From: a virus
DNA: 37,595 nucleotides
Strand: one strand, 5' to 3'
UHGV virus genome: UHGV-0051534
Shown: positions 3,766 to 35,237 of the stretch, piece by piece
Position numbering within the stretch: position 1 is the stretch's first letter
Layout: every line of letters begins with the position of its first letter
Position numbers and translations under genes: made by a program
Notes under the pieces: generated by a model
Database searches by the model: none
The model's input: the letters and a program-made list of their open reading frames with translations, nothing else
Told to the model about the DNA's origin: nothing

Positions 3766-4350
3766 TTATTTTTTGTTTTTTTCGTTCTGGTTGATGACAA
3801 ATTCAATGTAACTTTCGATCTTTGCTTTCTCGGTTTCGGGTAACAATGCGTAGCGCGAGCGATCATAGTTGATGGTCGCAGGGTCGTGCGGGTGAATCAG
3901 TAATTCATAGCCGTGACGCCCGAATGCGGATGCAACATTCTCCAGGGTGGAAATGGAAACGCTGACCTCATTGTTTAACAGGCGGCTGATTGTCACCTGG
4001 GCTACGCCGGATGCGCGGTGAAGTTTTCCCTGTGTTGAAAGGTCGCGGCTTTCGCTCATCCAGCGTTCCAGGTTGTGAGCCGCCAGCTGGCCAATGTCGC
4101 TTGGGCCGACAGGCTGAAAACCTTCCTGAGAAAGCGAGCGATCGATATCAAGCCAGTTACGGGGTTTATTGGCGGCAGCTTCAATTTTTCGTGCAACCTG
4201 GTCGCCGATAACCTTCTTGCCAAGAGCCCAGCGGTTTACCAGATTTGCCTGAGTTCCAAGTTTTTCAGCCATCCGCGTCTGAACACCATTGAATTCACGG
4301 TCGATCAAGTCGTTGAGATTTTGCCTGCGGACGTCCTGGATACTTTTCAT
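3766..4350 (-). CDS. immunity repressor (CI-like) with two HTH motifs and no S24 autocleavage domain
   Basis: 194 aa; HTH-like segments QTRMAEKLGTQANLVNRWALGKK and ASGVAQVTISRLLNNEVSVSISTLENVASAF; divergent from the Cro-like gene across an operator-rich gap; no peptidase-like C-terminal domain visible. Confidence 0.7.
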   Translation of the reverse strand: MKSIQDVRRQNLNDLIDREFNGVQTRMAEKLGTQANLVNRWALGKKVIGDQVARKIEAAANKPRNWLDIDRSLSQEGFQPVGPSDIGQLAAHNLERWMSESRDLSTQGKLHRASGVAQVTISRLLNNEVSVSISTLENVASAFGRHGYELLIHPHDPATINYDRSRYALLPETEKAKIESYIEFVINQNEKNKK

Positions 4351-11027: not shown

Positions 11028-12493
11028 CAGATACAGCGTTATCTCCTGAAGAGCAGTTGATCGAGGATATTGCAGGGTTCACTCACGATCCGCTTGGCTA
11101 TGCCCTCTATGCGTTCCCGTGGGGGGAAGAGGGGACTGAACTGGCACATGCTACCGGCCCACGTCAGTGGCAGGCTGATGCGTTCCGAGAGATACGTGAT
11201 CACCTGCAGAATCCAGAGACGCGCTATCAGCCGCTTATGCTGGCACGCGCTTCGGGTCACGGTATTGGTAAATCCGCATTCATCTCAATGCTGATCAACT
11301 GGGGCATGTCCACTTGCGAGGATTGTAAGGTCGTGGTGACCGCCAACACCGACAACCAGCTACGAACGAAGACCTGGCCGGAAATTATCAAGTGGTCGAA
11401 CCTTGCTATCACGAAAGACTGGTTTACCTGTACCGCTACCGCGATGTACAGCAATGACCCTGGGCACGACAAGCGGTGGCGAGCTGACGCAATCCCCTGG
11501 TCTGAGCACAACACTGAGGCATTCGCCGGACTACACAACGAGCGCAAACGCATCATCGTGGTATTCGACGAAGCATCCAACATTGCCGATCTGGTGTGGG
11601 AGGTAGCAGAGGGTGCGCTGACGGACGAAGACACTGAGATTATCTGGGTGGCATTCGGAAACCCTACACGTAACACCGGGCGTTTCCGCGAATGTTTCCG
11701 CAAATATAAACACCGCTGGAAAACTGCGCAGATTGACAGCCGGACGGTGGAAGGCACTAACAAACAGCAGTTGCAGAAATGGGTTGATGACTACGGGGAA
11801 GACAGCGACTTCGTTAAAATCCGTGTGCGCGGCATATTCCCTGATGCATCTGAATTGCAGTTTATCCCTACCGGTCTTACTGATGAGGCAATGAAACGGG
11901 TGGTAACCGCTGCGCAGGTGGCGCATGCTCCGGTGATAATCGGTGTTGACCCGGCATATTCAGGCGTTGATGACGCGGTGATATACCTGCGGCAGGGGCT
12001 ACACAGTAAGGTGCTGTGGACTGGCAACAAGACTACCGACGATCTGATTATGGCGAAGCGTATCGCTGACTTTGAAGACCAGTATCAGGCTGACGCGGTG
12101 TTCATCGACTTCGGTTACGGAACCGGTCTGAAGTCAATCGGTGACGGATGGGGTCGTACATGGCAACTTGTTCCGTTCGGTGGCGCGTCTACTGACCCGC
12201 AGATGCTCAACAAGCGTGGGGAGATGTTCAATTCATGCAAGACATGGCTGAGGCTGGGCGGCATGCTGGATGACCAGGAAACAGCAGACGACCTGTCGGC
12301 GGCAGAGTACAAAGTTCGAGTGGACGGTAAAATCGTTATCGAACCGAAGGAAGATATCAAGGAGCGGCTTGGGCGTTCGCCGGGTAAAGGCGATGCGCTA
12401 CTGCTGACGTTTGCGTTCCCGGTAGCCAAGAAAACTAATGACCCACGGCAGCAGCAGGGCAGGGCTATAACAGACTATGACCCATTTGAATGA
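11024..12493 (+). CDS. terL: terminase large subunit
   Basis: 489 aa, GTG start overlapping terS stop; Walker A-like ARASGHGIGKS; length and position typical of TerL. Confidence 0.85.
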   Translation: MTDTALSPEEQLIEDIAGFTHDPLGYALYAFPWGEEGTELAHATGPRQWQADAFREIRDHLQNPETRYQPLMLARASGHGIGKSAFISMLINWGMSTCEDCKVVVTANTDNQLRTKTWPEIIKWSNLAITKDWFTCTATAMYSNDPGHDKRWRADAIPWSEHNTEAFAGLHNERKRIIVVFDEASNIADLVWEVAEGALTDEDTEIIWVAFGNPTRNTGRFRECFRKYKHRWKTAQIDSRTVEGTNKQQLQKWVDDYGEDSDFVKIRVRGIFPDASELQFIPTGLTDEAMKRVVTAAQVAHAPVIIGVDPAYSGVDDAVIYLRQGLHSKVLWTGNKTTDDLIMAKRIADFEDQYQADAVFIDFGYGTGLKSIGDGWGRTWQLVPFGGASTDPQMLNKRGEMFNSCKTWLRLGGMLDDQETADDLSAAEYKVRVDGKIVIEPKEDIKERLGRSPGKGDALLLTFAFPVAKKTNDPRQQQGRAITDYDPFE

Positions 12494-12496
12494 TTT

Positions 12497-13345
12497 TTAC
12501 TTTTGTGTTTTTGATTTTCTTTGATGGGTGGAATTTAAACCACCATTTATATTTACTAGAGGATTATTCAATAATGTACTGATTTCTGGATTGTTAATTC
12601 CAGTAACGCCAAGTTTCTTTACGGACTCATTAAGGTCTTGTAATGATTTTAGACCTACAAACCCATTAGCAATTGTATTATTTGTTGCCAAAGGAATGTT
12701 TTTCTTATAGGACTCATATTCGTTTTTTAAATTTTTGTGGGCTTTTTCTAGATTTTCTAGTTTAGATGTTGTTTCATGAATAACCTTAGATAATTCTAAA
12801 ATACGAGCTTGTGCTGCGCGCAGTTCTGTCTCCCTCTCTTTCAATTCAGATGTGAGTTGTCCCATTCTGTCTTTTGAAAGAATTATTTCCTCTTTCATGT
12901 CTTGAATGTTTTTTTCAGCGCCTGTTTTTACTTTTTCGTAAGTAATGTCTTTTTTAGCCAGCAATCTCTGTAGCCGTGTTTCACGTTGTATTTTTCTTGC
13001 CTTCCGGTGATTTTCGATTGAGTCATTATTATCAAGAGGCTTTGCTTGCCATACGTTAATGATATTGTTTACCCATGGTAATAGGCAGCAGATAGTAATT
13101 ACAGATAAGCATGGATAAAACATAACAGTTTTCCATGTGCTGTTATCTGAGATGTATGAAATTTTATCTATTATATTTGATTTGCTAAAAAATAGATAAA
13201 GAAGTGATTTCCAGTTGAAGGCGCACCAGGACATAACAAAAGCACCTAGCACAGGGTTTTTAGCTCGATGCACGGCAGTATTGGCAGTAGATAAAAACAG
13301 CTCTTTGAACGATTCGAACATACTAATTACCTTAAAGTTTTTCAT
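12497..13345 (-). CDS. moron: membrane-anchored coiled-coil protein of unknown function (candidate exclusion/abortive-infection protein)
   Basis: About 33% GC against about 50% in flanks; opposite strand inside the late operon; two predicted TM helices (VLGAFVMSWCAFNWKSLLYLFF, VMFYPCLSVITICCLLPWVNNII) then a long coiled coil; start ATG 13345 or more likely ATG 13321 (AAGG RBS, 275 aa). Confidence 0.6.
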   Translation of the reverse strand: MKNFKVISMFESFKELFLSTANTAVHRAKNPVLGAFVMSWCAFNWKSLLYLFFSKSNIIDKISYISDNSTWKTVMFYPCLSVITICCLLPWVNNIINVWQAKPLDNNDSIENHRKARKIQRETRLQRLLAKKDITYEKVKTGAEKNIQDMKEEIILSKDRMGQLTSELKERETELRAAQARILELSKVIHETTSKLENLEKAHKNLKNEYESYKKNIPLATNNTIANGFVGLKSLQDLNESVKKLGVTGINNPEISTLLNNPLVNINGGLNSTHQRKSKTQK

Positions 13346-13346
13346 G

Positions 13347-13375
13347 ATTATACCTTTAAGGTAATTTGTGGTCAT
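13347..13375 (-). promoter_or_regulatory. candidate promoter of the moron with overlapping operator-like site
   Basis: Minus-strand consensus -10 TATAAT (forward 13347-13352) with ATGACC 17 bp upstream; ATACC-TTTAA-GGTAA (13350-13364) overlaps it. Confidence 0.4.
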
Positions 13376-13379
13376 CAGG

Positions 13380-13404
13380 CAAAAAAATGCCCGGCGAACC
13401 GGGC
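13380..13404 (-). terminator. rho-independent terminator between tRNA and moron
   Basis: Minus-strand hairpin GCCCGG-TTCG-CCGGGC followed by ATTTTTTT. Confidence 0.55.
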
Positions 13405-13482
13405 GAACTGGAAGCAATGAGTTATGCCTTCCGTGGCTGTACGGGTTTACAGCATGAAGTCATCGCAATGGCGTCCTGCTGT

Positions 13483-13524
13483 AAAAAGGGCGGTGATAGT
13501 CCTTCAAGGGAAACCATCACCGCC
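13483..13524 (-). terminator. candidate terminator 3' of tRNA-Arg
   Basis: Minus-strand 9-bp stem GGCGGTGAT/ATCACCGCC with an 18-nt loop followed by a T-run; about 45 nt after the tRNA 3' end. Confidence 0.4.
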
Positions 13525-13567
13525 AAGCCCCTGGAACTTCTGGCATCACGGTCCTTAGGCGTGATTC

Positions 13568-13644
13568 TGGCGCGGCATGCAGGATTCGAACCTGCGACCA
13601 ACCGCTTAGAAGGCGGTTGCTCTGTCCAACTGAGCTAATGCCAC
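13568..13644 (-). tRNA. tRNA-Arg (anticodon UCU)
   Basis: 77-nt cloverleaf folded by hand: acceptor GTGGCAT/ATGCCGC (one G-U pair), D-arm GCTC-AGTTGGACA-GAGC, anticodon arm ACCGC-CTTCTAA-GCGGT, T-arm GCAGG-TTCGAAT-CCTGC, discriminator G, encoded CCA. Confidence 0.85.
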
Positions 13645-13966
13645 AACGCTGAGAGCACTTAGCCTGTTAAGGCACCACACTTTGTCGCGGCTCCATAAAT
13701 GCTCTCATCGTTGCACCCTCGTCTCTTCCGAGGTGTCACACCGAATCGCCGGGATGGTGAATCCCCGTGCGCGGAATAAAACCGCTCGACTTGCACATTC
13801 CGGCTACCTGGTTCGTTTGCCCGAGCAAGGGAGGGTGCCCCTTAAACGTATCCAGACCGCTATCGGCGCATGTGCCATACACCGTACTGCTCAAAATAAA
13901 AGCTCACCCCGCCTGTTCAATTTAACGACAAGCCAGTCAGGTTAATAACCGGAATGAACTCTTTGC

Positions 13967-13981
13967 TTACCTGAAAGGTAA
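13967..13981. promoter_or_regulatory. operator-like inverted repeat TTACC-TGAAA-GGTAA
   Basis: Exact 5-5-5 motif in the AT-rich gap between the tRNA leader and the portal operon. Confidence 0.4.
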
Positions 13982-14071
13982 TAATTAGTGCGTTAAATGT
14001 CAAGTATCTACGATAAATAAATCACATGTGGTTAAATTGGTAATAATTTAATTGCGTACGGAGTCATTGAT

Positions 14072-14278
14072 ATGTGCATGGGTAGCTCACCATCAGTGCC
14101 TGCAACACCAGAAGTTCAGGCAGCACCACAGGAGCAGGATGCCGCCGTTGTTGATGCCCGCGACGAAGAAACTCGTCGCCGTCGCGCTGCTGCTGGTCGT
14201 AGTTCTACGCTGCTTACCGGTTCTCAGGGCGACACATCAACCGCTAATACCAGCGGTAAAACGCTGCTTGGTCAGTAA
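14072..14278 (+). CDS. hypothetical small protein upstream of portal
   Basis: 68 aa with GGAG RBS; low-complexity Ala/Arg/Thr-rich sequence. Confidence 0.45.
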   Translation: MCMGSSPSVPATPEVQAAPQEQDAAVVDARDEETRRRRAAAGRSSTLLTGSQGDTSTANTSGKTLLGQ

Positions 14279-14292
14279 CCGGAGTCATTGAA

Positions 14293-15972
14293 ATGGCGGA
14301 AACAACTAAAGAGCGATTGAACAAACAGTTCGCACAACTTGAAAGCGAGCGTCAGTCGTTCGAGCCGCACTGGCGCGAGTTGAGTGATTACATCAACCCG
14401 CGTGGTTCCCGCTTTCTGACTTCTGAGGTCAACCGTAACGATCGACGGAATACACGCATTATTGATTCGACCGGGACTATGGCGGCGCGCACTCTCGCCA
14501 GCGGCATGATGTCAGGCATCACAAGCCCCGCGCGTCCGTGGTTTCGCCTGGCTACGCCAGATCCTGAAATGATGGATTATGGCCCTGTTAAGTTGTGGCT
14601 TGAGGCGGTGCAGAACCGCATGAACGATATGTTCAATAAGTCGAATCTCTACCAGTCTCTTCCGCAGTTATACGGAAGCCTCGGCACATACAGCACTGGT
14701 GCAATGGCGGTGCTGGAGGATGACGAGGACATCATTCGCACAATGCCATTCCCGATAGGCAGTTACTACCTGGCTAACTCACCTCGTGGCAGTGTGGACA
14801 CCTGTTTTCGCAAGTTCTCTATGACTGTTCGTCAGCTTGTTCGGGAGTTCGGGCTAAATAACGTCAGCGAATCCGTAAAAAGCATGTGGGAAAGCGGCAC
14901 CTACGAGAAGTGGATTGAAGTGATGCATTCGGTTTACCCGAACATTGACCGCGATACATCGAAGCTGGATAGCAAGAACAAGCCATTCAAATCGGTTTAT
15001 TACGAGGTTGGTGGCGATAACGACAAGTTGTTGCGTGAGTCCGGATTCGATGAGTTTCCAATTATGGCTCCGCGCTGGGAAGTTAACGGCGAAGATGTTT
15101 ATGGATCATCATGCCCGGGTATGCTGGCGCTTGGACCTGTTAAGGCATTGCAGCTTCTCCAGAAGCGCAAGTCGCAGTTGATTGATAAAGCCACCAATCC
15201 GCCGATGGTTGCTCCGACTTCCCTCAAGAATCAGCGCGCCTCCCTTCTTCCTGGCGACATCACGTATATCGATCAGATTGCTGGTCAGGATGGTTTCAGG
15301 CCTGCTTATCTGGTTAACCCCAGTACAGCAGATCTGGTAGCAGACATTCAGGACACCCGCCAAATCATTAACAGCGCCTACTTTGTCGATCTGTTCATGA
15401 TGTTGCAGAACATCAATACCCGCTCGATGCCTGTTGAAGCGGTGATCGAAATGAAAGAAGAAAAACTTCTGATGTTGGGGCCGGTTCTGGAGCGTCTGAA
15501 CGACGAATGTCTTAATCCTCTCATTGACCGCGCTTTCTCGATGATGGTGCGTAAAAACATGCTGCCGCCACCGCCTGACGCGATGGAAGGTATGCCCCTG
15601 AAGGTCGAATACATTTCTGTCATGGCTCAGGCGCAGAAGTCTATCGGCCTGTCCAGTCTGGCGTCCACGGTTAACTTCATTGGTCAACTTGCGCAAGCGA
15701 AACCAGAAGCTCTCGACAAACTCAACGTTGATCAGGCGATCGATGCATTCGCTGATATGTCCGGAGTGTCTCCAACCGTCATTGTTCCGCAGGAACAGGT
15801 TGAGCAGGCTCGCCAGCAACGGGCACAGCAACAACAGCAGCAACAAATGATGGCGATGGGGATGGCGGCGGCACAGGGTGCCAAGACGCTAAGCGAAGCT
15901 AAAACTTCGGATCCGAGTGTTTTGTCAGCTATGGCGAATGCAGTTAGTGGTCAGGGTGGGCAATCACAATGA
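14293..15972 (+). CDS. portal (head-to-tail connector) protein, podovirus T7 gp8-like
   Basis: 559 aa; GGAG RBS; Gln/Ala/Met-rich C-terminus (QQQQQQQMMAMGMAAAQGA) resembles the T7-type portal C-terminus; sits after terminase. Confidence 0.8.
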   Translation: MAETTKERLNKQFAQLESERQSFEPHWRELSDYINPRGSRFLTSEVNRNDRRNTRIIDSTGTMAARTLASGMMSGITSPARPWFRLATPDPEMMDYGPVKLWLEAVQNRMNDMFNKSNLYQSLPQLYGSLGTYSTGAMAVLEDDEDIIRTMPFPIGSYYLANSPRGSVDTCFRKFSMTVRQLVREFGLNNVSESVKSMWESGTYEKWIEVMHSVYPNIDRDTSKLDSKNKPFKSVYYEVGGDNDKLLRESGFDEFPIMAPRWEVNGEDVYGSSCPGMLALGPVKALQLLQKRKSQLIDKATNPPMVAPTSLKNQRASLLPGDITYIDQIAGQDGFRPAYLVNPSTADLVADIQDTRQIINSAYFVDLFMMLQNINTRSMPVEAVIEMKEEKLLMLGPVLERLNDECLNPLIDRAFSMMVRKNMLPPPPDAMEGMPLKVEYISVMAQAQKSIGLSSLASTVNFIGQLAQAKPEALDKLNVDQAIDAFADMSGVSPTVIVPQEQVEQARQQRAQQQQQQQMMAMGMAAAQGAKTLSEAKTSDPSVLSAMANAVSGQGGQSQ

Positions 15973-23258: not shown

Positions 23259-25771
23259 TGCCAGTCGTACCAACAGTATCCGGACGTCAGGTTGAGAGCC
23301 GTGTAGTTCAGTCAGCAGGCTTGCAGACGTTTTCTCAGTCAGGTATTGGTGATGCTTTTGTTCTGGCAGGGGCAGAGACTATTGATGTTTTTGGTCAGGC
23401 AAAACAGCGTGCCAATATCGCTCTGGCTCAGGAGGCATCTCTTAACCTCAGTCAGATAAGCAGCGATCTGCTGAATAACCCTGAAACAGGGTTGCTTAAC
23501 CTGAAAGGGAAAAATGCTATTGGAAAAGGCCATGAGTATACGCAGCAGTTTGATGCTCAGGTCGAACAACTGGCTATGTCGCTGCCGGATGAACAGGCTC
23601 GTAATGCTTTCATGCAGCAGGCGCAGCAGCAGCGCATTCAGTTCACTACGCAGGCCGGGCGACACGAGATAGGGCAAATTAATGCCTACGAAGAAGGCCA
23701 GTTTCAGGCGACACTGCTGAACAATGGTAAAAATGCCGCAGCATTGTATGGCGACAACGCCGCATACGTATTGGCTAACAAACAAACTTTCCAGCAAATT
23801 GAGGAGTACGGTGTTGCACATGGCTGGAGCAACGAGCAAATCCAGGCCAAGAAAATCGAGTTTAAAGAGAAGGTTGCTGATGCTGCATTGTCCCAGTGGT
23901 CGGCAAACAATGCGACCGCATTCATCCAAAGTAATGGCGAGTTAAGTGATACTGCTGCTGGAGCTCGCCGTGCTGTAGCAGATAGTGACTCTTCCGAGCG
24001 TGCCCGTGGCATACGCAACAATAACCCAGGAAATCTCGAATACAGCAAAACTAATCCGTGGGTAGGCCAGACCGGTGATGATGGTCGATTTGCTAAATTC
24101 GAAACACCTGAACACGGGATTCGTGCATTAGGGCGGAACCTGATGTCGTATCAGAGGCAGGGTATTGATACCGTCAGCGAGATAATTAATCGCTGGGCAC
24201 CGCCTGCTGATAAAAATGACACTATGTCGTATATCAAAGCAGTGTGCGAACAACTTGGCGTTTCTGCTGATGAGCCTCTCGATGCATCTAATCCTGATAC
24301 CCTGAAGGCGCTTTGTGCAGCCATTATCCATCATGAGAACGGTAGCCAGCCATACAGTGATCAGCAGTTAACTGCTGGTGTCAGTGCAGCACTTGGTTTA
24401 TCAACAATTCCAACCAACACCAAACGCTATACCGGTAATGCAGCATTCGATGCGGCATCTCCTGAGGCGCAGGCAAGTTTTATGCGACAGGCGGATCAAC
24501 TGCGTCGGCAGCAGCAGGCTGAATATAAAACGATGATTGACAGCCAGGTTCGCGATGCGACAGCTGCGTATATGCGTGGCGTTGAATTTCCTAACCCACC
24601 TGGTGAGGCTGATTTTATTGCAGCTTATGGAGTAAGAGAAGGAAACCTGCGATATACCGAGTTCAGAAATACGCAAATCGCCGGACAGTATATAGGCTCT
24701 TTCCGCAACATGCCGACAAGCAGCATTACAGCATATGTTGAGCAATTACGCCCGGATACTGGCGAGACAGGGGAGGGTTATGCGGCACGAGCCGCTCTTT
24801 ATGACAACGTTGTGTCGGCTGCAAGTCAGGTGATAAAGCAGCGACAGGCTGATCCTGTACAGTTCTCTCTTGCCGCCGGACAGACAAAGCCTATCGACAT
24901 GAGCAATAAGGATAACTTTGGACAGAGCGTTGCCTTGCGTGCTGCTCAGGTCAGTGACCTTGCTAAGTCATATGGCACTCCACTGACGTTCTTTTCCAAA
25001 GACGAGGCCAATCAGATCGGTGTTTTCTTTCGTGATGCGCCCGTTTCCCAACAGGCAGCATATCTCGATACCATCAGGCAGAGCACTGGTGGTGGGCAGG
25101 TGTATATGTCAGCACTACAGCAGATCAGTGCCAACGCTCCATCTGCTGCCGTTGCCGGGATACTGATGGATAAGCCAGGTGGTATTTTGGCAGAAAAAAA
25201 CTGGTTTAATCCGGATGTTTCCGTGTCTCCTGAAACCGCTGCGCAGACAATTCTTGCTGGCGCGGCGGCTCGTAAAGGTACTGATGATGCGAAAGGTATT
25301 CCGATGCCTAAAGATGCTGATCTTCGCCTTGAGTTTTCTGACATGGTGAAGGATGCATTTGCTGGTGACGCTCAGGGGGCATCAATGGCATACGAGATCG
25401 CAAAGGATTATTACGCTGGTGTGATGGCGAAAAAAGGCGTGGTATCAGGCGAAATTGACAATGATGTCTGGAAACAGGCTGTTAACGTAGCTACAGGTGG
25501 CGTGCATGACTATAACGGAATGGGGAATGTCCTTTTGCCGTGGGGAATGTCTGCAGAGCAATTCGATAAGCAGGTTAATCAGGCTTGGAATGAACAAGTT
25601 GTCGGCTCCGGGATAAAAACACCGCCTGGTCAGTATGGTTTGCAAAGTTACGGCGATAGTCAGTACCTGGTGAAACTTGGTACTGGTTATCTGCTGAAAG
25701 ACGATGGTTCTCCCGTTGTTCTTAATCTGACACAGAAGCGTCAGAGATTCTCCGGAGATATTCCTCAATGA
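23258..25771 (+). CDS. internal virion / ejection protein
   Basis: 837 aa from ATG 23258 with GGAGG RBS; Gln/Ala-rich; contains segment RNNNPGNLEYSKTNPWVGQ...INRWAPPADKNDT of unverified function. Confidence 0.55.
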   Translation: MPVVPTVSGRQVESRVVQSAGLQTFSQSGIGDAFVLAGAETIDVFGQAKQRANIALAQEASLNLSQISSDLLNNPETGLLNLKGKNAIGKGHEYTQQFDAQVEQLAMSLPDEQARNAFMQQAQQQRIQFTTQAGRHEIGQINAYEEGQFQATLLNNGKNAAALYGDNAAYVLANKQTFQQIEEYGVAHGWSNEQIQAKKIEFKEKVADAALSQWSANNATAFIQSNGELSDTAAGARRAVADSDSSERARGIRNNNPGNLEYSKTNPWVGQTGDDGRFAKFETPEHGIRALGRNLMSYQRQGIDTVSEIINRWAPPADKNDTMSYIKAVCEQLGVSADEPLDASNPDTLKALCAAIIHHENGSQPYSDQQLTAGVSAALGLSTIPTNTKRYTGNAAFDAASPEAQASFMRQADQLRRQQQAEYKTMIDSQVRDATAAYMRGVEFPNPPGEADFIAAYGVREGNLRYTEFRNTQIAGQYIGSFRNMPTSSITAYVEQLRPDTGETGEGYAARAALYDNVVSAASQVIKQRQADPVQFSLAAGQTKPIDMSNKDNFGQSVALRAAQVSDLAKSYGTPLTFFSKDEANQIGVFFRDAPVSQQAAYLDTIRQSTGGGQVYMSALQQISANAPSAAVAGILMDKPGGILAEKNWFNPDVSVSPETAAQTILAGAAARKGTDDAKGIPMPKDADLRLEFSDMVKDAFAGDAQGASMAYEIAKDYYAGVMAKKGVVSGEIDNDVWKQAVNVATGGVHDYNGMGNVLLPWGMSAEQFDKQVNQAWNEQVVGSGIKTPPGQYGLQSYGDSQYLVKLGTGYLLKDDGSPVVLNLTQKRQRFSGDIPQ

Positions 25772-27570
25772 GTTACTTTGGCCTTAATCCAGTAAACCAG
25801 AATCAGCAGCTTGACGAAGCAGCATCAAATCCAGCTGGCTTTAACAGCGATGTTGGTTTTTTCGACAATGCTGTAGGAGCGGCATTGTCTGGTTTGTACT
25901 CCGGGCTGGTGGCAAAGCCAGATCAGTTGCTATGGGCAGGGATGGATAAAATCGTATCCCCGATTGCTCAGTTTGTTAACGAAAACACCTCGCTCAATGA
26001 CACTTCAGTTTCATACATTGCTGAGCAGAGAAAACTAGCAGAGCAGCAGGTTAAGCGGCTGACGCCTGATGCCGCGACAACCGGAACCGCCGGGCAGGTT
26101 CTTTATGGGTTGTTCGATATGGGCGGGCAGGCTGTTGTCGGTACAACGCTCGGTGGTCCTGTCGGAGGTGCAGCGGCGGTAACTTCGCTACAGGGTTTTT
26201 CTGAGTTTGAACGGCTGACAGCACAGGGTGTTGATTTCAGGACGGCGCAGGAAGCGGGATTAGTGCAGGGCATTACTGCTGGTGCCGGAACACTGATCCC
26301 TATGAGCCTCGGGTTACGTGCTGGTGGTGCGCTGGCGGAAGGTGTGGCGGCTCAGCTTGCGCGGACGGGTGAGAGTTCAGTGCGACGCGCCGCAGCAACA
26401 GCAGTACGTGCAACGCCAGATATTGCCTATGCCGCAGGTACAAATATTGCGTTCGGTATGGCACAGCGTGGGCTTACTGCAAAAACGCTTCGTGATGGTG
26501 GCTATAGCGAAATGGCTAACCAGTATGATGTGTTGGATCGACAGGCAATTGCTATTGATGCTGTTCTTGGGGTGGCGTTTGGTGGTGTCGGCAGATTTAT
26601 TAACTCTCGCGGCGAGTCTACAAGCGCACCAAATTTTTCACCAGTTGATGTCGATGCTGCACTGGCGGCGAATGCCGCTCATCATGCTGAAATTGATATT
26701 GCTCCCGGCGTGCCGATCAACGTGCTTTCGCGCAATTCTCACATTCAGGCTCTGCGAAAAGCTATGTCTGATGTTAGCCAGGGGAGACCTGTAGACGTTG
26801 CCAGCATTGTTGAGTCTGCATCTTTCAGTGAAATTCCTGGGCGCAAGAATCTGCTGTCTCAGGCAGTTAATGAGGCTCTGTCATCTGTAGATGATGGAGT
26901 AACGGCGCGCGCTATCGAAAATCGGTTGCTTGAAGAACAGGCTGCGCAGCTTTTGCCGCGTGGCGATAGACAGGTTTACCAGTCTGAAATCGCTAATAGC
27001 CAACGAATTATCGACAATCTCACTGAACAGCGTGCACAAATTCTTGCAGAAGAGCCAACCGGTAGCGGTAAAGCTTTGTCTCGTGCTCGATCAGATAAAC
27101 AGGCCAGACTTCGCGATATTGATCAACGAATCCGGCAGGCACAAGAACGCCTGGAATTTTCCCGTAACGCGTTGGCGCCGCACGAGCCTGGAGGTCAGTT
27201 TTTTGAAGCTCGAGCAGAACTGGCACGGCGACAGCAGGCAGAAAGTGAACTTAATGCTCAGGCTGTTTCATTCTATAAAACAGCAGAGGTCAGGACGCCA
27301 GACGAAGTAGCTCCTTTTGAGCCCGGTAAGATATTGCAACAGACAGAACAAAAAATGATGGCAGATCCGGCAGGAGATATTGATCTGCGTATAGCTGAAG
27401 ACTCGCTGCTTGAATCTCCGGACATGATAATCACCGTGCTGGATGATGATGGTAATCCACAATCGCGCAGTGCGCGTGAAGTACTGGATGAAGCGAACAG
27501 GGAAAGTGAGCAGGCAATACAGGATTCCAGCCTGTTTGATGTTGCTGTGGCGTGTTTCTTGAGAGGTTAA
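25768..27570 (+). CDS. internal virion / ejection protein
   Basis: 600 aa; Gly/Ala-rich N-terminus and coiled-coil C-terminus; coupled to neighbours. Confidence 0.5.
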   Translation: MSYFGLNPVNQNQQLDEAASNPAGFNSDVGFFDNAVGAALSGLYSGLVAKPDQLLWAGMDKIVSPIAQFVNENTSLNDTSVSYIAEQRKLAEQQVKRLTPDAATTGTAGQVLYGLFDMGGQAVVGTTLGGPVGGAAAVTSLQGFSEFERLTAQGVDFRTAQEAGLVQGITAGAGTLIPMSLGLRAGGALAEGVAAQLARTGESSVRRAAATAVRATPDIAYAAGTNIAFGMAQRGLTAKTLRDGGYSEMANQYDVLDRQAIAIDAVLGVAFGGVGRFINSRGESTSAPNFSPVDVDAALAANAAHHAEIDIAPGVPINVLSRNSHIQALRKAMSDVSQGRPVDVASIVESASFSEIPGRKNLLSQAVNEALSSVDDGVTARAIENRLLEEQAAQLLPRGDRQVYQSEIANSQRIIDNLTEQRAQILAEEPTGSGKALSRARSDKQARLRDIDQRIRQAQERLEFSRNALAPHEPGGQFFEARAELARRQQAESELNAQAVSFYKTAEVRTPDEVAPFEPGKILQQTEQKMMADPAGDIDLRIAEDSLLESPDMIITVLDDDGNPQSRSAREVLDEANRESEQAIQDSSLFDVAVACFLRG

Positions 27571-30805: not shown

Positions 30806-30829
30806 ACAAAAAAGCCCGCGCTGCGGGCT
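30806..30829 (-). terminator. rho-independent terminator after moron 2
   Basis: Minus-strand hairpin AGCCCGC-AGC-GCGGGCT followed by TTTTTT. Confidence 0.6.
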
Positions 30830-31353
30830 TACCAAAACTTGTACCACGGGGATTTATCCTTCAATGGACAATCCTTCCATCGTGTGGCCAACCATTCATA
30901 TTCTTTAAAATATGTGTTTATGTTTTCTTTTTCTCTAATAGCTTGTATAAGAGGTAGCGCAATCTGATAGTTATTTACAACGGAGCTGTAAAATACTTCC
31001 TTAATCATGGTCTCATCATAAGTTTTCCGCTTCACGCTCACAGCCATGCGTTCGTAGAAACCTAGACAGTAAATTATTTCTCTCTTCTCTATCTTTTCTT
31101 CATCCGTAAGATCAGCCTGCCCATTGCTTGGATACATATAAGAGCGGAATGATTTGTTCGACTCGTGAATGCGGCGCATAGTAGATAGGCCTTTCTTATA
31201 ATCTACATCAAACCTGCTTTCACCAAGGAATACTGAAGTGTGTACTTTTCTCGCTGTATTTACATTATAAATAATAGTAGCGATAGCTATGAACAAGCCA
31301 AGCGAAACCGCGACTGCACTTACGATTTGAGCCACAGCCATGGCAAATTGCAT
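30829..31353 (-). CDS. moron 2: N-terminally membrane-anchored protein of unknown function
   Basis: 174 aa from ATG 31353 (GTG 31368 possible); N-terminal TM helix AMAVAQIVSAVAVSLGLFIAIATIIY then soluble domain; about 37% GC; opposite strand to structural genes. Confidence 0.5.
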   Translation of the reverse strand: MQFAMAVAQIVSAVAVSLGLFIAIATIIYNVNTARKVHTSVFLGESRFDVDYKKGLSTMRRIHESNKSFRSYMYPSNGQADLTDEEKIEKREIIYCLGFYERMAVSVKRKTYDETMIKEVFYSSVVNNYQIALPLIQAIREKENINTYFKEYEWLATRWKDCPLKDKSPWYKFW

Positions 31354-31385
31354 TTCTTCACTTAACACAAACTGTCTCCAGACAT

Positions 31386-32279: not shown

Positions 32280-32435
32280 AGTGGTTACCTTTTAGTCTGG
32301 TTAATCACCACTACCGACGCCAATCGGTTGGTGGTGAACTGTGCAGGGTTGGCGTAACCGGCTAAAAGGACCCGGCGCACCTTTCGGTGCCCCCACACAG
32401 CCCACCATAATACGAATGTGGCCGTGCTATACGCA

Positions 32436-33047: not shown

Positions 33048-35237
33048 ATGACGGTCTCAACCGAAGTTGACCACAACGAATACACTGGTAACGGAGCTAC
33101 GACATCATTTCCGTATACCTTCCGTATTTTCAAAAAAACCGACCTGGTTGTTCAGGTGTCTGACCTGAACGGGAACGTAACAGAATTGGTTCTGGATACC
33201 GGTTATAAGGTAACTGGAGCGGGCACTTATAGTGGCGGTGAAGTGGTTCTCCCGTCGCCGCTTGCTGCTGGCTGGCGAATTACGATAGAGCGTGTGCTTG
33301 ATGTGGTGCAGGAGACTGATCTTCGCAATCAGGGAAAATTTTTCCCCGAAGTTCATGAAGATGCATTTGACTACCTGACGATGCTGATCCAGCGATGTTT
33401 TGGGTGGTTCAGACGTGCATTGATGAAACCATCTTTGCTTGCAAAATATTACGATGCAAAGCAAAACAAAATTTCTAACCTTGCAGATCCATCATTTGAG
33501 CAGGACGCTGTAAATAATCGCTCAATGCGTAATTATGTCGATGCTGCAATCGCCGGGGTTGTTGGTGGTTTTGGTTGGTTTATACCGTCAGGAAGCGGGG
33601 CAAGACAACGAACATTTCAAAGCAAAATGAGGGATATAATTTCTCCTTGTGATTACGAAGATAATATTTTTATGATTAAGGAGTTGATATCCAAAGGCAA
33701 AAATGCCGCTGTTTTTAACTCATATTATACTTTTGTTATTACTGTTGGCGAATGGGGTGATTACCCTACACTCAAAGATGCAATCATTGCAGCCCAGTCA
33801 ATGAGACCTATGTGGGATGGTGGTAATGCTTTCTGCGAAATAAGAATTAAGACCGGGCATATTATCAACTATCAAATTGAATTCAGTTCAGGTGTTGATT
33901 TGTCTTGGATTAAAATAACATCAGAAGACTCAGTGGTTTTCTCTGACACTCGTTTGTTTACTAAAATCGTTAGAACGTATTACGAATACAAGTATTTATT
34001 TTACATTTGCGATGCAGCAAAAAGTCCTGTATTTGCTATTCAGATCGAAGAAAATAGAGATGATAGCGATGTTTGTGCATTTATTGTAACTCAAAAAGCT
34101 GAACTTAATTTCTATCCGTATTCAGGTGCTCGAAAGTTCTACGTTGGAATTCATGGTAGTTTTGGTGCAAAAATTAGTGCATATCATACCGGATGTGCTC
34201 CTGATGAGGAAAGTGTTGCTGCATATATGCCAGAAGGGTATTACGTATGTGATTTTTCTTATAGCAGATACTCTTCCCTGCAACTGGTAAATAATGTCAA
34301 GGCATCAATGCCTGTAAGCAAGTTTGAACGGTGCACAGAGAGTACGGTTGCGTCAGTTAATTGTATTTATAATGTTAAAGCAGATTTTCAGGGGTCAAGT
34401 GCAAGCTATTGTTATATAGGATGGAATGTAAGAGATGGTTCAAATGTTAATATACGCGACCATAAAACTATACATTGCTCATATCGTGGATTAACCTGCA
34501 TTCATACAGCATATGTTGATGCAAGACGACATGACGTTGAAGAAAGTGATGCAGAAACAAGTGGTAAAGTCCTTGAACCAAATATTGAAAAAGGTTTTTA
34601 TGGATGTGCACTTGGTGTGCGTATTGATGGTGCGGGTTGCGTTGATGTTGCTGGTAATGATATGCGCAATTGTGGAACAGCCGTTAATGCAGACACTGGT
34701 GCTGTTATTTCAGGAAAGGCTGTAGATATCTCAGGGGCTGAGCTGGGATTTGATTGCCATGCAGGAGCATCTGTTAATTTTCCAAGGCTATGGGGTACAG
34801 ATATAAAAAAATTAATGCACCTCCAAGATGGTGTAAGGTTTAACTCTAATATTTGTCATGTATTTGGTGCAAATCCCACAAAAGATATTAGATGGATTGA
34901 TGTAGAGAGATCTGAAGCTTCTTTTATGAATGCAACGCTGGATGCAGATTCAGGATTTATTGCCGACTGTGGTAGTAGGATAACCATTGAAGGAAGTAAA
35001 GTTAAAAACCAAACAATAAGAAGTTTTTTTGGATCATATGTGGCTATAAATAATACTGTTGCTGACAGAACTTATTCAGATATAGCCGATGTTCCGCAGT
35101 TGACTATTAGTGGAGGATCTTTTATTTCTGCTACAGGATATTCTAATTCTGACTCCAGCCCTCTGAGGTTGAGCACAACACGAAATACACTTGGCGTTGG
35201 AGGAGCCATATTTTCAACCAATGGGGAAGTTTCATGA
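33048..35237 (+). CDS. tailspike / tail fibre protein with low-GC receptor-binding part
   Basis: 729 aa; GGAG RBS; N-terminus MTVSTEVDHNEYTGNGATTSFPYTFRIFKKTDLVVQV typical of podovirus tailspike particle-binding domains; GC falls to about 38% after about 33600; C-terminal part Gly/Ser/Asn/Cys-rich as in beta-helix depolymerase domains. Confidence 0.75.
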   Translation: MTVSTEVDHNEYTGNGATTSFPYTFRIFKKTDLVVQVSDLNGNVTELVLDTGYKVTGAGTYSGGEVVLPSPLAAGWRITIERVLDVVQETDLRNQGKFFPEVHEDAFDYLTMLIQRCFGWFRRALMKPSLLAKYYDAKQNKISNLADPSFEQDAVNNRSMRNYVDAAIAGVVGGFGWFIPSGSGARQRTFQSKMRDIISPCDYEDNIFMIKELISKGKNAAVFNSYYTFVITVGEWGDYPTLKDAIIAAQSMRPMWDGGNAFCEIRIKTGHIINYQIEFSSGVDLSWIKITSEDSVVFSDTRLFTKIVRTYYEYKYLFYICDAAKSPVFAIQIEENRDDSDVCAFIVTQKAELNFYPYSGARKFYVGIHGSFGAKISAYHTGCAPDEESVAAYMPEGYYVCDFSYSRYSSLQLVNNVKASMPVSKFERCTESTVASVNCIYNVKADFQGSSASYCYIGWNVRDGSNVNIRDHKTIHCSYRGLTCIHTAYVDARRHDVEESDAETSGKVLEPNIEKGFYGCALGVRIDGAGCVDVAGNDMRNCGTAVNADTGAVISGKAVDISGAELGFDCHAGASVNFPRLWGTDIKKLMHLQDGVRFNSNICHVFGANPTKDIRWIDVERSEASFMNATLDADSGFIADCGSRITIEGSKVKNQTIRSFFGSYVAINNTVADRTYSDIADVPQLTISGGSFISATGYSNSDSSPLRLSTTRNTLGVGGAIFSTNGEVS

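What the first reader, a model, noticed from the sequence alone, without database searches (positions are those of the whole stretch)
12497..13410. AT-rich reverse-strand moron between terminase and portal: 2-TM plus coiled-coil protein with its own promoter
A roughly 850-bp block at about 33% GC sits in about 50% GC late genes and is encoded on the opposite strand. Its 3' end converges on the terL stop within 4 bp. It has a consensus -10 TATAAT (13347-13352), and an intrinsic terminator (13380-13404) separates it from the upstream tRNA-Arg. The product has two N-terminal TM helices followed by a coiled coil of about 120 residues and a Asn/Gly-rich tail. This architecture and placement are what I would expect of a lysogen-expressed superinfection-exclusion or abortive-infection protein (SieB-like arrangement), but I recognise no family. 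An operator-like site (ATACC-TTTAA-GGTAA, 13350-13364) overlaps its promoter.
Basis: partly seen in the sequence, partly recalled or inferred. Interest (0 to 1): 0.8.

Follow-up and report, generated by a model that had tools for sequence, protein, structure and literature searches.

The report
Repressor-wired accessory membrane gene in prophage
An AT-rich, backwards-facing gene between the packaging and portal genes of an E. coli prophage encodes an uncharacterised membrane-anchored coiled-coil protein with a swappable tail, and its promoter carries one of the phage repressor's operators; it is a plausible but untested phage-exclusion factor.

Summary
A 34% GC reverse-strand gene lies 3 nt from the terL stop in a phiV10/epsilon15-like (Uetakevirus) E. 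coli prophage. It has a conserved sigma-70 promoter and sits downstream of a tRNA-Arg and its terminator.

Corrections:
- The conserved start is Met9 (ATG 13321, 274 aa). The TATAAT cannot serve the annotated ATG 13345.
- Only one helix is clearly transmembrane.

The "operator-like" site is real. It is one of about 15 copies of ATTACC-N5-GGTAAT, which the epsilon15 record annotates as repressor sites. The window's repressor is a homologue of SPC32H Rep.

The protein belongs to PHROG 4780. No known function, Pfam domain, PADLOC hit or fold match was found, and it is not homologous to SieA or SieB.

The family has about 2,400 clusters at 50% identity. Named members are all Enterobacterales. The N-terminal membrane module is conserved (78% mean identity). 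The coiled-coil/tail half is hypervariable (17%) and exchanged by recombination.

The family recurs in this slot, even in divergent relatives. It is absent from phiV10 and epsilon15, which carry a Gp49-family gene instead.

Best reading: a dispensable accessory membrane protein wired to Rep, probably used in phage-phage competition. Function and lysogenic expression remain untested.

The parts
12497..13321 (-). Coding sequence: 274 aa plus stop, from the conserved start Met9 (ATG 13321..13319). Member of PHROG 4780.
   Evidence: ORF and translation. Homologues start at MLESLKEY, which corresponds to this Met. Upstream alignments show that ATG 13321 is invariant and ATG 13345 is not. PHROG 4780 matches at E = 7.5e-122, aligned from residue 9 of the 282-aa form.
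13322..13345 (-). Eight extra codons (MKNFKVIS) of the RefSeq-style 282-aa annotation. Probably 5' UTR when the gene is transcribed from its own promoter.
   Evidence: The -10 box ends at 13347, only 1 nt before this ATG. The ATG is absent in the Klebsiella and other E. coli alleles. RefSeq annotates the 849-nt form.
13330..13333 (-). Shine-Dalgarno AAGG, 8 nt upstream of ATG 13321.
   Evidence: Read directly from the sequence. An AAGG/AGGG/ATGG block is conserved at this place in 33 distinct upstream variants.
13347..13375 (-). Sigma-70-type promoter: -35 ATGACC (13375..13370), 17-bp spacer, -10 TATAAT (13352..13347).
   Evidence: Best promoter match in the region, 10 of 12. The TGAC core and the T-A---T of the -10 are conserved in 33 distinct upstream variants from several phage types.
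13349..13365 (.). Rep operator. On the - strand it reads ATTACC-TTAAA-GGTATA. It lies in the promoter spacer, and its right arm is fused to the -10.
   Evidence: It is one of 11 exact TACC-N5-GGTA sites, against 0.22 expected. It is also one of 15 sites within 2 mismatches of ATTACC-N5-GGTAAT, against 1.17 expected. The same motif is annotated as protein_bind 'repressor' in the epsilon15 record. The arms are near invariant across variants while the flanks vary.
13187..13255 (-). Residues 23-45: conserved NPxxGAFxxSW(C)xFNWK hydrophobic helix-break-helix. It may be a second membrane span or a re-entrant hairpin.
   Evidence: AlphaFold2 predicts helices at 23-34 and 37-45. Many columns are invariant. 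The mean 19-residue Kyte-Doolittle value stays below 1.2.
13043..13135 (-). Residues 63-93: the one clearly transmembrane helix.
   Evidence: Kyte-Doolittle 19-residue means reach 1.3-2.0 only here. AlphaFold2 predicts a helix at 63-93. The following 40 residues carry 11 Lys/Arg against 6 Asp/Glu, which places the C-terminal part in the cytoplasm by the positive-inside rule.
12698..13030 (-). Residues 98-208: juxtamembrane conserved helix followed by a coiled coil. The conserved part ends near residue 154 (about 12861). From there on the sequence is hypervariable.
   Evidence: AlphaFold2 predicts helices at 101-129 and 134-208, with pLDDT above 90 from about residue 140. 81% of a/d heptad positions are hydrophobic. 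DNA matches to other E. coli alleles stop at query position 365, which is window position about 12861.
12500..12697 (-). Residues 209-274: Asn/Gly-rich, predicted disordered, exchangeable tail.
   Evidence: pLDDT is below 50. Composition. Against the AST20 allele, dS jumps from 0.04 in codons 1-195 to 0.68 in the tail, with dN/dS 0.41. This marks a recombination junction near codon 195, about position 12736.
13381..13404 (-). Intrinsic terminator that ends the tRNA-Arg transcription unit. It is the right-hand edge of the variable cassette.
   Evidence: GC stem plus T7 run. 99% identity to phiV10 and its relatives begins exactly at 13381.
13489..13524 (-). First terminator-like hairpin downstream of the tRNA (14-bp stem).
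13568..13644 (-). tRNA-Arg (anticodon TCT), the upstream neighbour on the same strand.
   Evidence: ARAGORN and Rfam.
12527..12554 (+). Terminator-like hairpin on the + strand, probably ending the terS-terL transcript. It lies inside the 3' end of the reverse gene.
   Evidence: No comparable terminator for the reverse gene itself was found on the - strand.
3766..4350 (-). Prophage repressor (194 aa, two HTH motifs, no Pfam match to an autocleavage/peptidase domain). It is the predicted trans-acting factor for the operator.
   Evidence: Pfam HTH_3 and YdaS-like matches. Homologue of the Salmonella phage SPC32H repressor, PDB 5D50, at E = 4e-42.

Best explanation
The feature is a self-contained accessory cassette of temperate Uetakeviruses, made of a promoter, an operator and one gene. 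It is not part of the virion or packaging machinery.

The product is an inner-membrane protein. It has a conserved N-terminal membrane module of about 95 residues: an amphipathic helix, a Trp-rich hydrophobic hairpin and one transmembrane helix. A conserved basic juxtamembrane segment and a long cytoplasmic coiled-coil stalk follow. The stalk carries a hypervariable, recombining distal coil and a disordered tail.

Host sigma-70 RNA polymerase transcribes the gene from its own promoter. An operator of the phage's SPC32H-type repressor (Rep) sits in the spacer and abuts the -10 box. Expression is therefore tied to the immunity state of the phage. It may be low or leaky in the lysogen. It would be full after Ant-mediated derepression or on entry into a cell that lacks Rep.

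I think the most likely function is phage-phage competition at the cytoplasmic membrane, either superinfection exclusion or abortive infection. In this model the conserved membrane module is the anchor or effector, and the exchangeable coil and tail set the specificity.

Shown here: the anatomy, the family, the promoter and operator, dispensability, and the mosaic structure. Inferred: topology, oligomerisation, the sign and strength of Rep control, and the function itself.

The confidence of 0.4 refers to the proposed function. That this is an accessory, non-structural cassette wired to Rep I hold at above 0.9.
For: Accessory status:
- The gene is absent from the infectious relatives phiV10 and epsilon15. 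Both carry an unrelated Gp49-family gene in this slot.
- Only 5 of 50,697 phage records encode the N-domain.
- Among 5,426 complete E. coli genomes, 504 hold the full conserved tRNA block. Alleles of this family were found in 56, 25 and 5 genomes. These are separate searches whose overlap with each other and with the 504 was not checked. The Gp49-family gene was found in 243.

Autonomy: the promoter travels with the gene into non-Uetakevirus prophages, where the gene again lies opposite to its neighbours.

Composition: gene GC is 33-45% against 55-60% for terL in every lineage examined.

Membrane plus coiled-coil architecture.

Constant N-domain and variable C-terminal half:
- Mean pairwise identity is 78% against 17%.
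- 179 pairs have N at or above 85% and C at or below 30%.
- C-terminal types are shared between different N lineages.
- Recombination junctions lie near codons 154 and 195. The N part has dN/dS 0.05 and the tail 0.41, so both are under purifying selection.

Long residence: alleles only 37% identical occupy the same slot in phages whose terL is 72-76% identical.

Rep wiring:
- 15 operator copies in the window and 15 in phiV10 at homologous promoters.
- The epsilon15 record annotates the motif as repressor sites.
- The window encodes a Rep homologue.
- Rep binds palindromic sites as a tetramer and is released by Ant (PMC9638917).

Arrangement: it parallels P22 sieA, a reverse-strand gene with its own promoter abutting the end of a late gene. 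It also parallels sieB, a reverse-strand gene with its own promoter inside the early-left operon.
Against: - No homology to any known exclusion or defence protein was found. PADLOC, Pfam and NCBIfam gave only coiled-coil noise. The SieB and SieA comparisons were negative. No fold match was found.
- No experiment or paper on this family was found.
- A Rep operator in the promoter could silence the gene in lysogens, which is where a protective function would be needed.
- Hypervariability of a coiled coil and a disordered tail can also reflect weak constraint plus recombination, not an arms race. The tail dN/dS is 0.41, not above 1.
- The structure models have only moderate confidence (pTM 0.27 and 0.36). 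The second membrane span is uncertain.
Confidence: 0.4

Rival explanations
1. A lytic-cycle or induction function. Rep keeps the gene off in stable lysogens. It is made early after infection or derepression. There it acts for the phage itself, for example by excluding secondary infection of the already infected cell (as T4 Imm/Sp do), tuning lysis timing, countering a host membrane-associated defence, or organising replication or packaging at the membrane.
For: The operator occupies the spacer and -10, the classic position for steric repression. The same motif sits at the early-left, cro-side, replication, terS, portal, tailspike and antirepressor-operon promoters, which must be silent in a lysogen. 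Pint has the same promoter design. The family has stayed in the terL|portal slot over deep phage divergence, which suggests benefit to the phage.
Against: The gene is dispensable for plaque-forming relatives. The same operator design is present at promoters of genes annotated as O-antigen/serotype-conversion functions (phiV10 oac, epsilon15 gp22-21) and at the repressor's own promoter. So it does not imply silence. The moron site is among the weakest matches to the consensus (2 outer mismatches), so repression may be leaky. Copies in non-Uetakevirus prophages lack the Rep network (one site per locus) and would be constitutive there.
Confidence: 0.25
2. A host-directed lysogenic-conversion factor with no role in phage exclusion. 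It would be a membrane-anchored coiled-coil protein that alters envelope, division or stress physiology, or the host-association traits of the lysogen.
For: It is an accessory, AT-rich gene with its own promoter in a prophage. It shares promoter design with the O-antigen conversion genes of sister phages. The architecture, a membrane anchor plus a cytoplasmic coiled coil, resembles bacterial division and scaffold proteins in general terms (own knowledge; only noise-level Pfam hits such as DivIC in a distant member).
Against: No domain or motif points to any host pathway. The family is tied to phage genomes and to one phage slot, not to host niche. A recombining hypervariable C-terminus is not expected for a protein that targets conserved host machinery.
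Confidence: 0.12
3. A selfish or near-neutral passenger. This could be a membrane-toxic or addiction-type gene, or a fast-evolving filler that persists through recombination in a permissive intergenic slot.
For: The slot tolerates unrelated genes (Gp49 family) and truncated alleles. The AST20 allele ends early, and a 163-aa truncated cluster, P0004, exists. No function is known for any of about 2,400 clusters.
Against: There is strong purifying selection on the N-domain (dN/dS 0.05) and moderate selection on the tail (0.41). Dozens of residues are invariant across genera. The promoter and operator are conserved. No partner antitoxin-like gene lies in the cassette.
Confidence: 0.08
4. A virion, assembly or packaging accessory protein, given its position between terminase and portal.
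For: Position only. There are also weak PHROG matches to tape-measure families (E = 6e-6 to 3e-3).
Against: Those matches cover only the coiled coil and are dwarfed by PHROG 4780 at 1e-122. The gene lies on the opposite strand and is AT-rich. It is absent from phiV10, epsilon15 and most isolated relatives. The predicted protein is an inner-membrane protein.
Confidence: 0.03

Closest known systems
P22 / lambda SieB (Pfam PF14163), abortive superinfection exclusion
   Same: Both are reverse-strand genes with their own promoter embedded among phage operon genes (P22 record). Both have N-terminal hydrophobic helices followed by a cytoplasmic C-terminal part. Both are single genes.
   Different: No sequence relationship: no Pfam hit and hhalign probability 0.2%. 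SieB is 192 aa, has no long coiled coil and has an internal Esc start. Its promoter is not known to carry a repressor operator. The phenotype of the present gene is untested.
P22 SieA, inner-membrane exclusion protein that blocks DNA entry (PMC10883804)
   Same: Both are reverse-strand genes with their own promoter abutting the 3' end of a late gene. Both are inner-membrane proteins. [quoted passage not shown]
   Different: No homology (hhalign probability 0.1%). SieA has no coiled coil and no variable tail.
phiV10 gp03 / epsilon15 gp50 (NCBI 'Gp49 family protein')
   Same: It occupies the same slot, on the reverse strand between terL and the terminator/tRNA-Arg block. It is the commoner occupant in E. 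coli, found in 243 genomes.
   Different: It is an unrelated 121-124 aa protein with no N-domain match. In phiV10 it has no promoter or operator of its own, and its Shine-Dalgarno follows the terminator directly.
Rep-operator-bearing accessory promoters of sister phages: phiV10 oac, epsilon15 gp22-gp21 conversion operon, Pint
   Same: All share the promoter design: ATTACC-N5-GG fused to the -10 box. oac and gp22-21 are reverse-strand membrane-protein genes annotated as superinfection-immunity or serotype-conversion functions.
   Different: Those products are enzymes or inhibitors that modify O-antigen, or an integrase. The present product has no enzymatic domain.
HK97 gp15 and T4 Imm (small inner-membrane exclusion proteins; own knowledge, not tested here)
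   Same: Phage-encoded inner-membrane proteins that block entry of superinfecting DNA. HK97 gp15 is a moron inside the late region.
   Different: They are much smaller, have no coiled coil and have no modular variable C-terminus. No comparison was run here.

Membership tests
Moron (accessory gene unit in a phage operon, in the sense of Hendrix and Juhala) | Present in some but absent from otherwise collinear related phages | tested here: met
   Absent from phiV10, epsilon15 and most isolated relatives. In those, identity to the window resumes at 13381. Slot census in E. coli.
Moron (accessory gene unit in a phage operon, in the sense of Hendrix and Juhala) | Own promoter | tested here: met
   ATGACC-17-TATAAT scores 10 of 12. 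It is conserved in 33 distinct upstream variants and moves with the gene into other phage types. This is sequence-level evidence only; no transcript data were available.
Moron (accessory gene unit in a phage operon, in the sense of Hendrix and Juhala) | Own terminator | tested here: not met
   No convincing - strand terminator lies after the stop. The gene runs into terL after 3 nt. The only nearby hairpin with a T-rich tail is on the + strand at 12527-12554.
Moron (accessory gene unit in a phage operon, in the sense of Hendrix and Juhala) | Base composition different from the surrounding genes | tested here: met
   34.2% GC against 52-54% in the flanking genes. The difference is family-wide.
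Moron (accessory gene unit in a phage operon, in the sense of Hendrix and Juhala) | Expressed from the repressed prophage | not testable with these tools
   Needs RNA-seq or 5'-RACE. The Rep operator in the promoter makes this uncertain.
SieB (Pfam PF14163) | Sequence or profile homology to SieB | tested here: not met
   No Pfam hit for the query or for any of 66 homologues. hhalign against P22 SieB gives probability 0.2%.
SieB (Pfam PF14163) | Aborts lytic growth of superinfecting phages | not testable with these tools
   Needs plating and one-step growth assays.
SieA (P22) | Sequence or profile homology to SieA | tested here: not met
   hhalign probability 0.1%.
PHROG 4780 (phage protein family of unknown function) | Full-length profile match | tested here: met
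   E = 7.5e-122, residues 9-281 against profile positions 1-268 of 275.
Known anti-phage defence systems (PADLOC-DB v2.0.0) | Significant match outside the coiled coil to any defence protein model | tested here: not met
   Only weak matches (E of 7.6e-5 or worse), all within residues 106-244, the coiled-coil region plus part of the tail, to SMC-like models (LmuB, JetC, DruC, PD-Lambda-1).
Regulon of the SPC32H-type repressor (Rep) of Uetakeviruses | Operator ATTACC-N5-GGTAAT at the promoter | tested here: met
   The core TACC-N5-GGTA is exact, with 2 mismatches in the outer positions of one arm. The motif equals the sites annotated as 'repressor' in epsilon15. The arms are conserved across alleles.
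Regulon of the SPC32H-type repressor (Rep) of Uetakeviruses | Cognate repressor encoded by the same phage | tested here: met
   The protein encoded at 3766..4350 (-) matches PDB 5D50 'Repressor' at E = 4e-42. A Bro-N antirepressor lies downstream of C4/isrK-type RNAs.
Regulon of the SPC32H-type repressor (Rep) of Uetakeviruses | Rep binds the site and changes transcription | not testable with these tools
   Needs EMSA or footprinting, and reporter fusions with and without Rep.
Virion or assembly proteins | Profile or fold match to a structural family, or requirement for infectivity | tested here: not met
   The tape-measure PHROG hits cover only the coiled coil. No fold match was found. The gene is absent from infectious relatives.

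The most novel reading that the evidence does not exclude
PHROG 4780 and its wider superfamily (about 2,400 clusters at 50% identity; named members are all Enterobacterales) would be a new class of single-gene, phage-encoded exclusion or abortive-infection proteins. A conserved membrane module would act as effector. A recombining coiled-coil and tail cassette would set target specificity. The whole unit would be tuned by the prophage repressor through a deliberately weakened operator, so that it is expressed at a low protective level in lysogens and at full level on induction.
Probability: 0.3. Interest if true: 0.7.

Novelty: new variant of a known kind. Interest (0 to 1): 0.45.

Why it matters
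If the protein is an exclusion or abortive-infection factor, it adds a large unannotated family to the prophage-encoded defence repertoire of E. coli, Klebsiella, Enterobacter, Citrobacter and Salmonella. The family has swappable specificity modules, and current defence-finding tools miss it. Such a factor could bear on phage therapy host range and on competition among prophages.

Independently of function, the locus shows that accessory genes in this phage group are not simply constitutive. They share a promoter design in which the immunity repressor's operator is fused to the -10 box. The same design is used for the integrase gene, the O-antigen conversion genes and the repressor gene itself. 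That gives a testable model of graded, affinity-set expression of lysogenic-conversion genes.

It also corrects the start codon used in RefSeq for this protein.

Tried and rejected
Searches that gave nothing informative:
- Pfam, NCBIfam and PADLOC scans of the protein and of 66 homologues gave only coiled-coil noise. Ten distant members have no Pfam domain.
- A PDB sequence-profile search found nothing.
- The genome-contig scan with the N-domain alignment found no confirmed locus.
- A profile of distant N-domains in the word-indexed protein search returned only 4 short proteins.
- That alignment was too divergent for locus finding. Two distant single proteins found no viral loci.
- Cluster look-ups of 10 distant members returned only 'hypothetical protein'.
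- Literature searches for accession numbers, PHROG 4780 and Uetakevirus defence found nothing on the family.
- The epsilon15 genome paper and the SPC32H antirepression paper are not held. The ZX5 paper does not define the operator.

Ideas rejected:
- ATG 13345 is not the start.
- Low GC is not evidence of recent acquisition.
- The tail shows no in-situ positive selection. dS jumps 16-fold, which indicates recombination, and dN/dS is 0.41.
- The operator does not prove silence in lysogens.
- SieB or SieA membership is rejected.
Full report
**1. Where the window comes from**

The window is a phiV10/epsilon15-like (genus Uetakevirus) prophage of E. coli. The gene region is 100% identical to the chromosome of strain GPEC1186. 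The neighbouring genes are terS, terL, tRNA-Arg, a small gene, portal and capsid genes. They are collinear with phiV10 and epsilon15.

**2. Check of the observation**

- *ORF and junction.* An ORF lies on the - strand at 12497..13417. Its stop codon starts 3 nt after the terL stop (12493).
- *Composition.* The gene is 34.2% GC with GC3 29.8%. terL is 54.4% and portal 51.9%. It is the lowest-GC 800-bp stretch of the window, about 3.8 sd below the mean.
- *Promoter.* The best promoter-like match in 12300-14300 is ATGACC-17 bp-TATAAT on the - strand (13375..13347), scoring 10 of 12.
- *Upstream unit.* Upstream on the same strand lie tRNA-Arg(TCT) (13568..13644), a 14-bp hairpin (13524..13489) and a GC-stem plus T7 terminator (13404..13389).

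**3. Corrections to the observation**

*Start codon.* TATAAT ends 1 nt before the annotated ATG 13345, so a transcript from this promoter cannot contain that codon. Nearly all homologues start at MLESLKEY, which is equivalent to Met9 here. In 33 distinct upstream sequences ATG 13321 is invariant and is preceded by an AAGG-type ribosome-binding site. ATG 13345 is replaced by CAG or CCC in other alleles. PHROG 4780 also aligns from residue 9. The product is therefore 274 aa (13321..12497). The RefSeq 282-aa model is probably 8 codons too long.

*Transmembrane helices.* Only residues 63-93 exceed a strict hydrophobicity threshold. Residues 23-45 carry the signature NPxxGAFxxSWxxFNWK. They form a weaker helix-break-helix in the AlphaFold2 models. 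This could be a second span or a re-entrant hairpin.

**4. The protein**

AlphaFold2 predicts an all-helical protein.
- Short helices span residues 2-60.
- The transmembrane helix spans 63-93.
- A helix spans 101-129.
- One long helix spans 134-208, with pLDDT above 90 from about residue 140.
- The tail from 211 onward is predicted disordered.
- The models have mean pLDDT 70 and pTM 0.27 for the full length, and pTM 0.36 for the N-domain alone.

In one heptad register 81% of a/d positions in 134-208 are hydrophobic, against 32% overall. This is a genuine coiled coil. The 40 residues after the transmembrane helix carry 11 Lys/Arg against 6 Asp/Glu. By the positive-inside rule the stalk is cytoplasmic (inference). 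The tail contains 11 Asn and 6 Gly in 66 residues.

**5. Family**

- Pfam, NCBIfam and PADLOC give only coiled-coil noise. The same holds for all 66 aligned homologues.
- PHROG 4780, of unknown function, matches at 7.5e-122.
- A word-indexed search found 141 relatives. The 120 listed are unnamed or called hypothetical (a few 'coiled-coil' or 'DUF3450' labels), and every one that names an organism is from Enterobacterales.
- A profile of the N-domain searched against 1.84 billion representatives found 2,392 clusters at E of 1e-3 or better and 348 at 1e-10 or better. Lengths range from about 200 to 514 aa. All share the N-terminal signature followed by coiled coils of varying length.
- Ten distant members have no Pfam domain. 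Cluster look-ups returned only 'hypothetical protein' from Klebsiella and Pantoea.
- No structural relative was found.
- No paper on the family was found.

**6. Constant N-terminus, variable and recombining C-terminus**

Among 66 homologues the first 155 residues average 78% pairwise identity and the rest averages 17%. There are 179 pairs with N at or above 85% and C at or below 30%. Some C-terminal types are shared by different N lineages. For example, P0003 shares its C-terminal type with P0005 and P0013.

At the DNA level, many E. coli alleles match the window at about 92% only over query positions 365-849. The match breaks at window position about 12861, which is codon about 154.

Against the AST20 allele:
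- Codons 1-195 have dS 0.042 and dN/dS 0.05.
- The tail has dS 0.68 and dN/dS 0.41.
- This marks a second recombination junction near codon 195. It also shows purifying selection on both parts.

**7. The slot and its occupants**

- *Boundary of the cassette.* In phiV10 and close relatives, 99% identity to the window resumes exactly at 13381, the T-run of the terminator. The promoter therefore belongs to the variable cassette.
- *Alternative occupant.* phiV10 and epsilon15 carry instead an unrelated 121-124 aa 'Gp49 family' gene. In phiV10 it has no promoter of its own and follows the terminator directly.
- *Other members in the slot.* EC.W1-9 and BUCT711 carry members of the present family, at 43% and 62% N-domain identity.
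- *IMG/VR loci.* Of 69 viral loci with the family, most have it in the same slot of Uetakeviruses whose terL is 78-100% and portal 60-100% identical to the window's.
- *Deep residence.* Alleles only 37% identical occupy the same slot in phages with terL 72-76% and portal 69% identity.
- *Other contexts.* A minority sit in other prophage types. One lies between the replication genes and nin-like genes in a Klebsiella prophage. Another lies beside a DUF6338 gene in a lambdoid prophage. Both are opposite to their neighbours.
- *Phage records.* Only 5 of 50,697 phage records encode the N-domain.
- *Census in 5,426 complete E. coli genomes*. These are separate DNA searches, and their overlap was not checked.

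| Sequence searched | Genomes |
|---|---|
| Full conserved tRNA block | 504 |
| Any match to the window gene (18 cover at least 80% of it; the rest match only the N-terminal part) | 56 |
| EC.W1-9 allele | 25 |
| P0110 allele | 5 |
| Gp49-family gene (at least 80% coverage) | 243 |

- *AT-richness.* The gene is AT-rich in every lineage, at 33-45% GC against 55-60% for terL. This is a maintained property, not a sign of recent arrival.

**8. The operator**

- TACC-N5-GGTA occurs 11 times in the window against 0.22 expected.
- ATTACC-N5-GGTAAT with up to 2 mismatches occurs 15 times against 1.17 expected.

Most sites lie just upstream of transcription units, usually right after a terminator:

| Window position(s) | Location |
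|---|---|
| 3631, 3693 | early-left region |
| 4405 | rep/cro intergenic region |
| 4790 | before the next rightward gene |
| 6736, 6798 | before the DUF1064 operon |
| 10398, 10416 | terS |
| 13349 | this gene |
| 13966 | portal operon |
| 31497 | between the antirepressor gene and the DUF4760 gene |
| 32548 | C4/isrK-antirepressor operon |
| 32928 | tailspike |

Evidence that identifies the motif and its binding protein:
- phiV10 has 15 sites at homologous places, against 1.5 expected. It also has sites at Pint and upstream of oac.
- The epsilon15 RefSeq record annotates seven such sites as protein_bind 'repressor; lysogeny'. Their sequences are exactly ATTACC-N5-GGTAAT.
- The window's 194-aa double-HTH repressor matches the solved SPC32H repressor (PDB 5D50) at 4e-42.
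- That repressor is reported to bind palindromic sites as a tetramer and to be dismantled by the antirepressor Ant (PMC9638917).
- A Bro-N antirepressor gene lies downstream of C4/isrK-type RNAs in the window.

In the promoter of this gene the operator fills the spacer and its right arm is fused to the -10 (ATTACC-TTAAA-GG|TATAAT). Across 33 distinct upstream variants the TGAC of the -35, the TACC and GGTA arms and the -10 are near invariant, while the six bases between the -35 and the operator vary freely. In non-Uetakevirus prophages the arms are sometimes decayed (L013, L044, L048, L080). Those phages lack other copies of the motif.

**9. What the operator does and does not imply**

A palindrome over the spacer and -10 is the classic position for repression. 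Taken alone, it argues against constitutive lysogenic expression.

However, the same design is present at several other promoters:
- Pint in phiV10, epsilon15 and BUCT711;
- the promoter of phiV10 oac, annotated as acetylating the host O-antigen and functioning in superinfection immunity (abstract of PMC11854483);
- the promoter of the epsilon15 serotype-conversion genes gp22-gp21;
- the repressor's own promoter side (4405).

The design is therefore compatible with expression in lysogens. The site of this gene is among the poorest matches to the consensus, with 2 outer mismatches. A reasonable but unproven model is graded control, leaky in the lysogen and full on derepression.

**10. Mechanism proposed**

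*Shown here:*
- The gene is dispensable, mobile and has its own promoter.
- It encodes a membrane-anchored coiled-coil protein with a conserved N-terminal module and exchangeable distal modules.
- Its promoter carries a Rep operator.

*Inferred:*
- Topology is N-in (or hairpin) with the C-terminal part in the cytoplasm.
- The protein oligomerises through the coiled coil.
- Expression is tied to immunity status.
- It acts in phage-phage competition at the inner membrane, as exclusion or abortive infection. The variable part would set specificity.

I put this function at about 0.4. That the gene is an accessory, non-structural gene I put above 0.9.

*Rivals:*

| Rival | Probability |
|---|---|
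| Rep-repressed early or lytic function | 0.25 |
| Host-directed conversion factor | 0.12 |
| Selfish or neutral passenger | 0.08 |
| Virion or assembly role | 0.03 |

**11. Comparison with what is known**

The arrangement resembles P22 sieA, a reverse-strand gene with its own promoter abutting a late gene. It also resembles sieB, a reverse-strand gene with its own promoter inside the early-left operon. Profile comparisons show no homology to either.

It meets most criteria for a moron. It has no terminator of its own, and expression from the prophage is unknown. It is a member of PHROG 4780. It is not covered by PADLOC v2.0.0.

**12. Verdict**

The feature is real and the cassette is now well delimited. 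It is a new family-level variant of a known kind of element, a prophage accessory membrane protein. It has an unusual modular build and a defined link to the phage repressor. Its function is unproven. Interest is moderate, at 0.45.

Noticed in passing
window 3631, 3693, 4405, 4790, 6736, 6798, 10398, 10416, 13349, 13966, 31497, 32548, 32928 (17-bp sites): A phage-wide network of ATTACC-N5-GGTAAT operators, 15 sites within 2 mismatches against 1.17 expected. Most sit just after a terminator at the head of a transcription unit, so the genome appears cut into terminator-plus-operator/promoter modules. phiV10, epsilon15 and BUCT711 have the same network. The epsilon15 record annotates only the perfect copies as repressor sites.
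   Followed up: yes
L084 (phiV10) 26869-26885; L087 (epsilon15) 26881-26897; L086 (BUCT711) 12619-12635: The integrase promoter uses the same variant operator as the studied gene (ATTACC-N5-GGTATA, right arm turned into a TATA(A/C)T -10). In phiV10 the central bases are identical too (TTAAA). This suggests the cassette promoter is a copy of a native Pint-type promoter.
   Followed up: partly
L084 (phiV10) 24691-24707 and L087 (epsilon15) 24703-24719: The promoters of the O-antigen modification genes (oac; gp22-gp21) also carry an operator abutting their -10. In phiV10 the -10 is TGaTATTAT, in epsilon15 GG-TAAAAT. The divergent phiV10 lysis-operon promoter, about 50 nt away, contains a different palindrome, AACC-ATATAT-GGTT.
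   Followed up: partly
window 32327-32512 (-) and 31584-32279 (-): Rfam finds C4 antisense RNA (77.7 bits) and isrK (77.9 bits) in tandem upstream of a Bro-N antirepressor gene. An operator lies at 32548 just upstream. This is an immI-like antisense-controlled antirepressor module resembling P1/P7.
   Followed up: partly
window 30829-31368 (-): A reverse-strand DUF4760 gene (179 aa, about 41% GC) lies downstream of the antirepressor gene, after a terminator-like hairpin. An operator-like site lies at 31497, upstream of a short intervening ORF and that hairpin. It may be another accessory gene. PADLOC gave no hit.
   Followed up: partly
window 13381-13567 (-): The roughly 190-nt stretch between tRNA-Arg and the cassette is conserved, at 99% in phiV10-like phages and about 83% in Salmonella SPN1S-like phages. 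It folds better than shuffles (z = -2.65) and has two terminator hairpins in tandem. The ORF annotated on the opposite strand in phiV10 (PhiV10p04) overlaps the tRNA region and is probably spurious. No Rfam family matched.
   Followed up: partly
window 12527-12554 (+): The only terminator-like hairpin for the terS-terL transcript lies inside the 3' coding end of the reverse gene. The two convergent transcripts would therefore overlap by some tens of nucleotides. The reverse gene has no terminator before it enters terL in antisense.
   Followed up: no
window 33600-35200 (+): The second lowest-GC stretch of the window (35-41%) is the C-terminal two thirds of the 729-aa tailspike ORF (33048..35237), while its N-terminal part has 47-49% GC. 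This would fit an exchanged receptor-binding module.
   Followed up: no
L099 (E. coli AST20) 368-1147 and protein P0004: Truncated alleles of the family exist. The AST20 allele ends early (…EISTFE*), and a 163-aa form (P0004) stands for 29 sequences on 7 contigs. The C-terminal half can therefore be lost in nature.
   Followed up: partly
L088, L091, L096 (IMG/VR) upstream of the gene: In the 37%-identical alleles of divergent Uetakevirus-like phages the promoter lacks the TACC-N5-GGTA site. An operator-like palindrome (GTTACC-TATCT-GGTTAC) instead overlaps the ribosome-binding region. The repressor link would thus be kept but moved.
   Followed up: no
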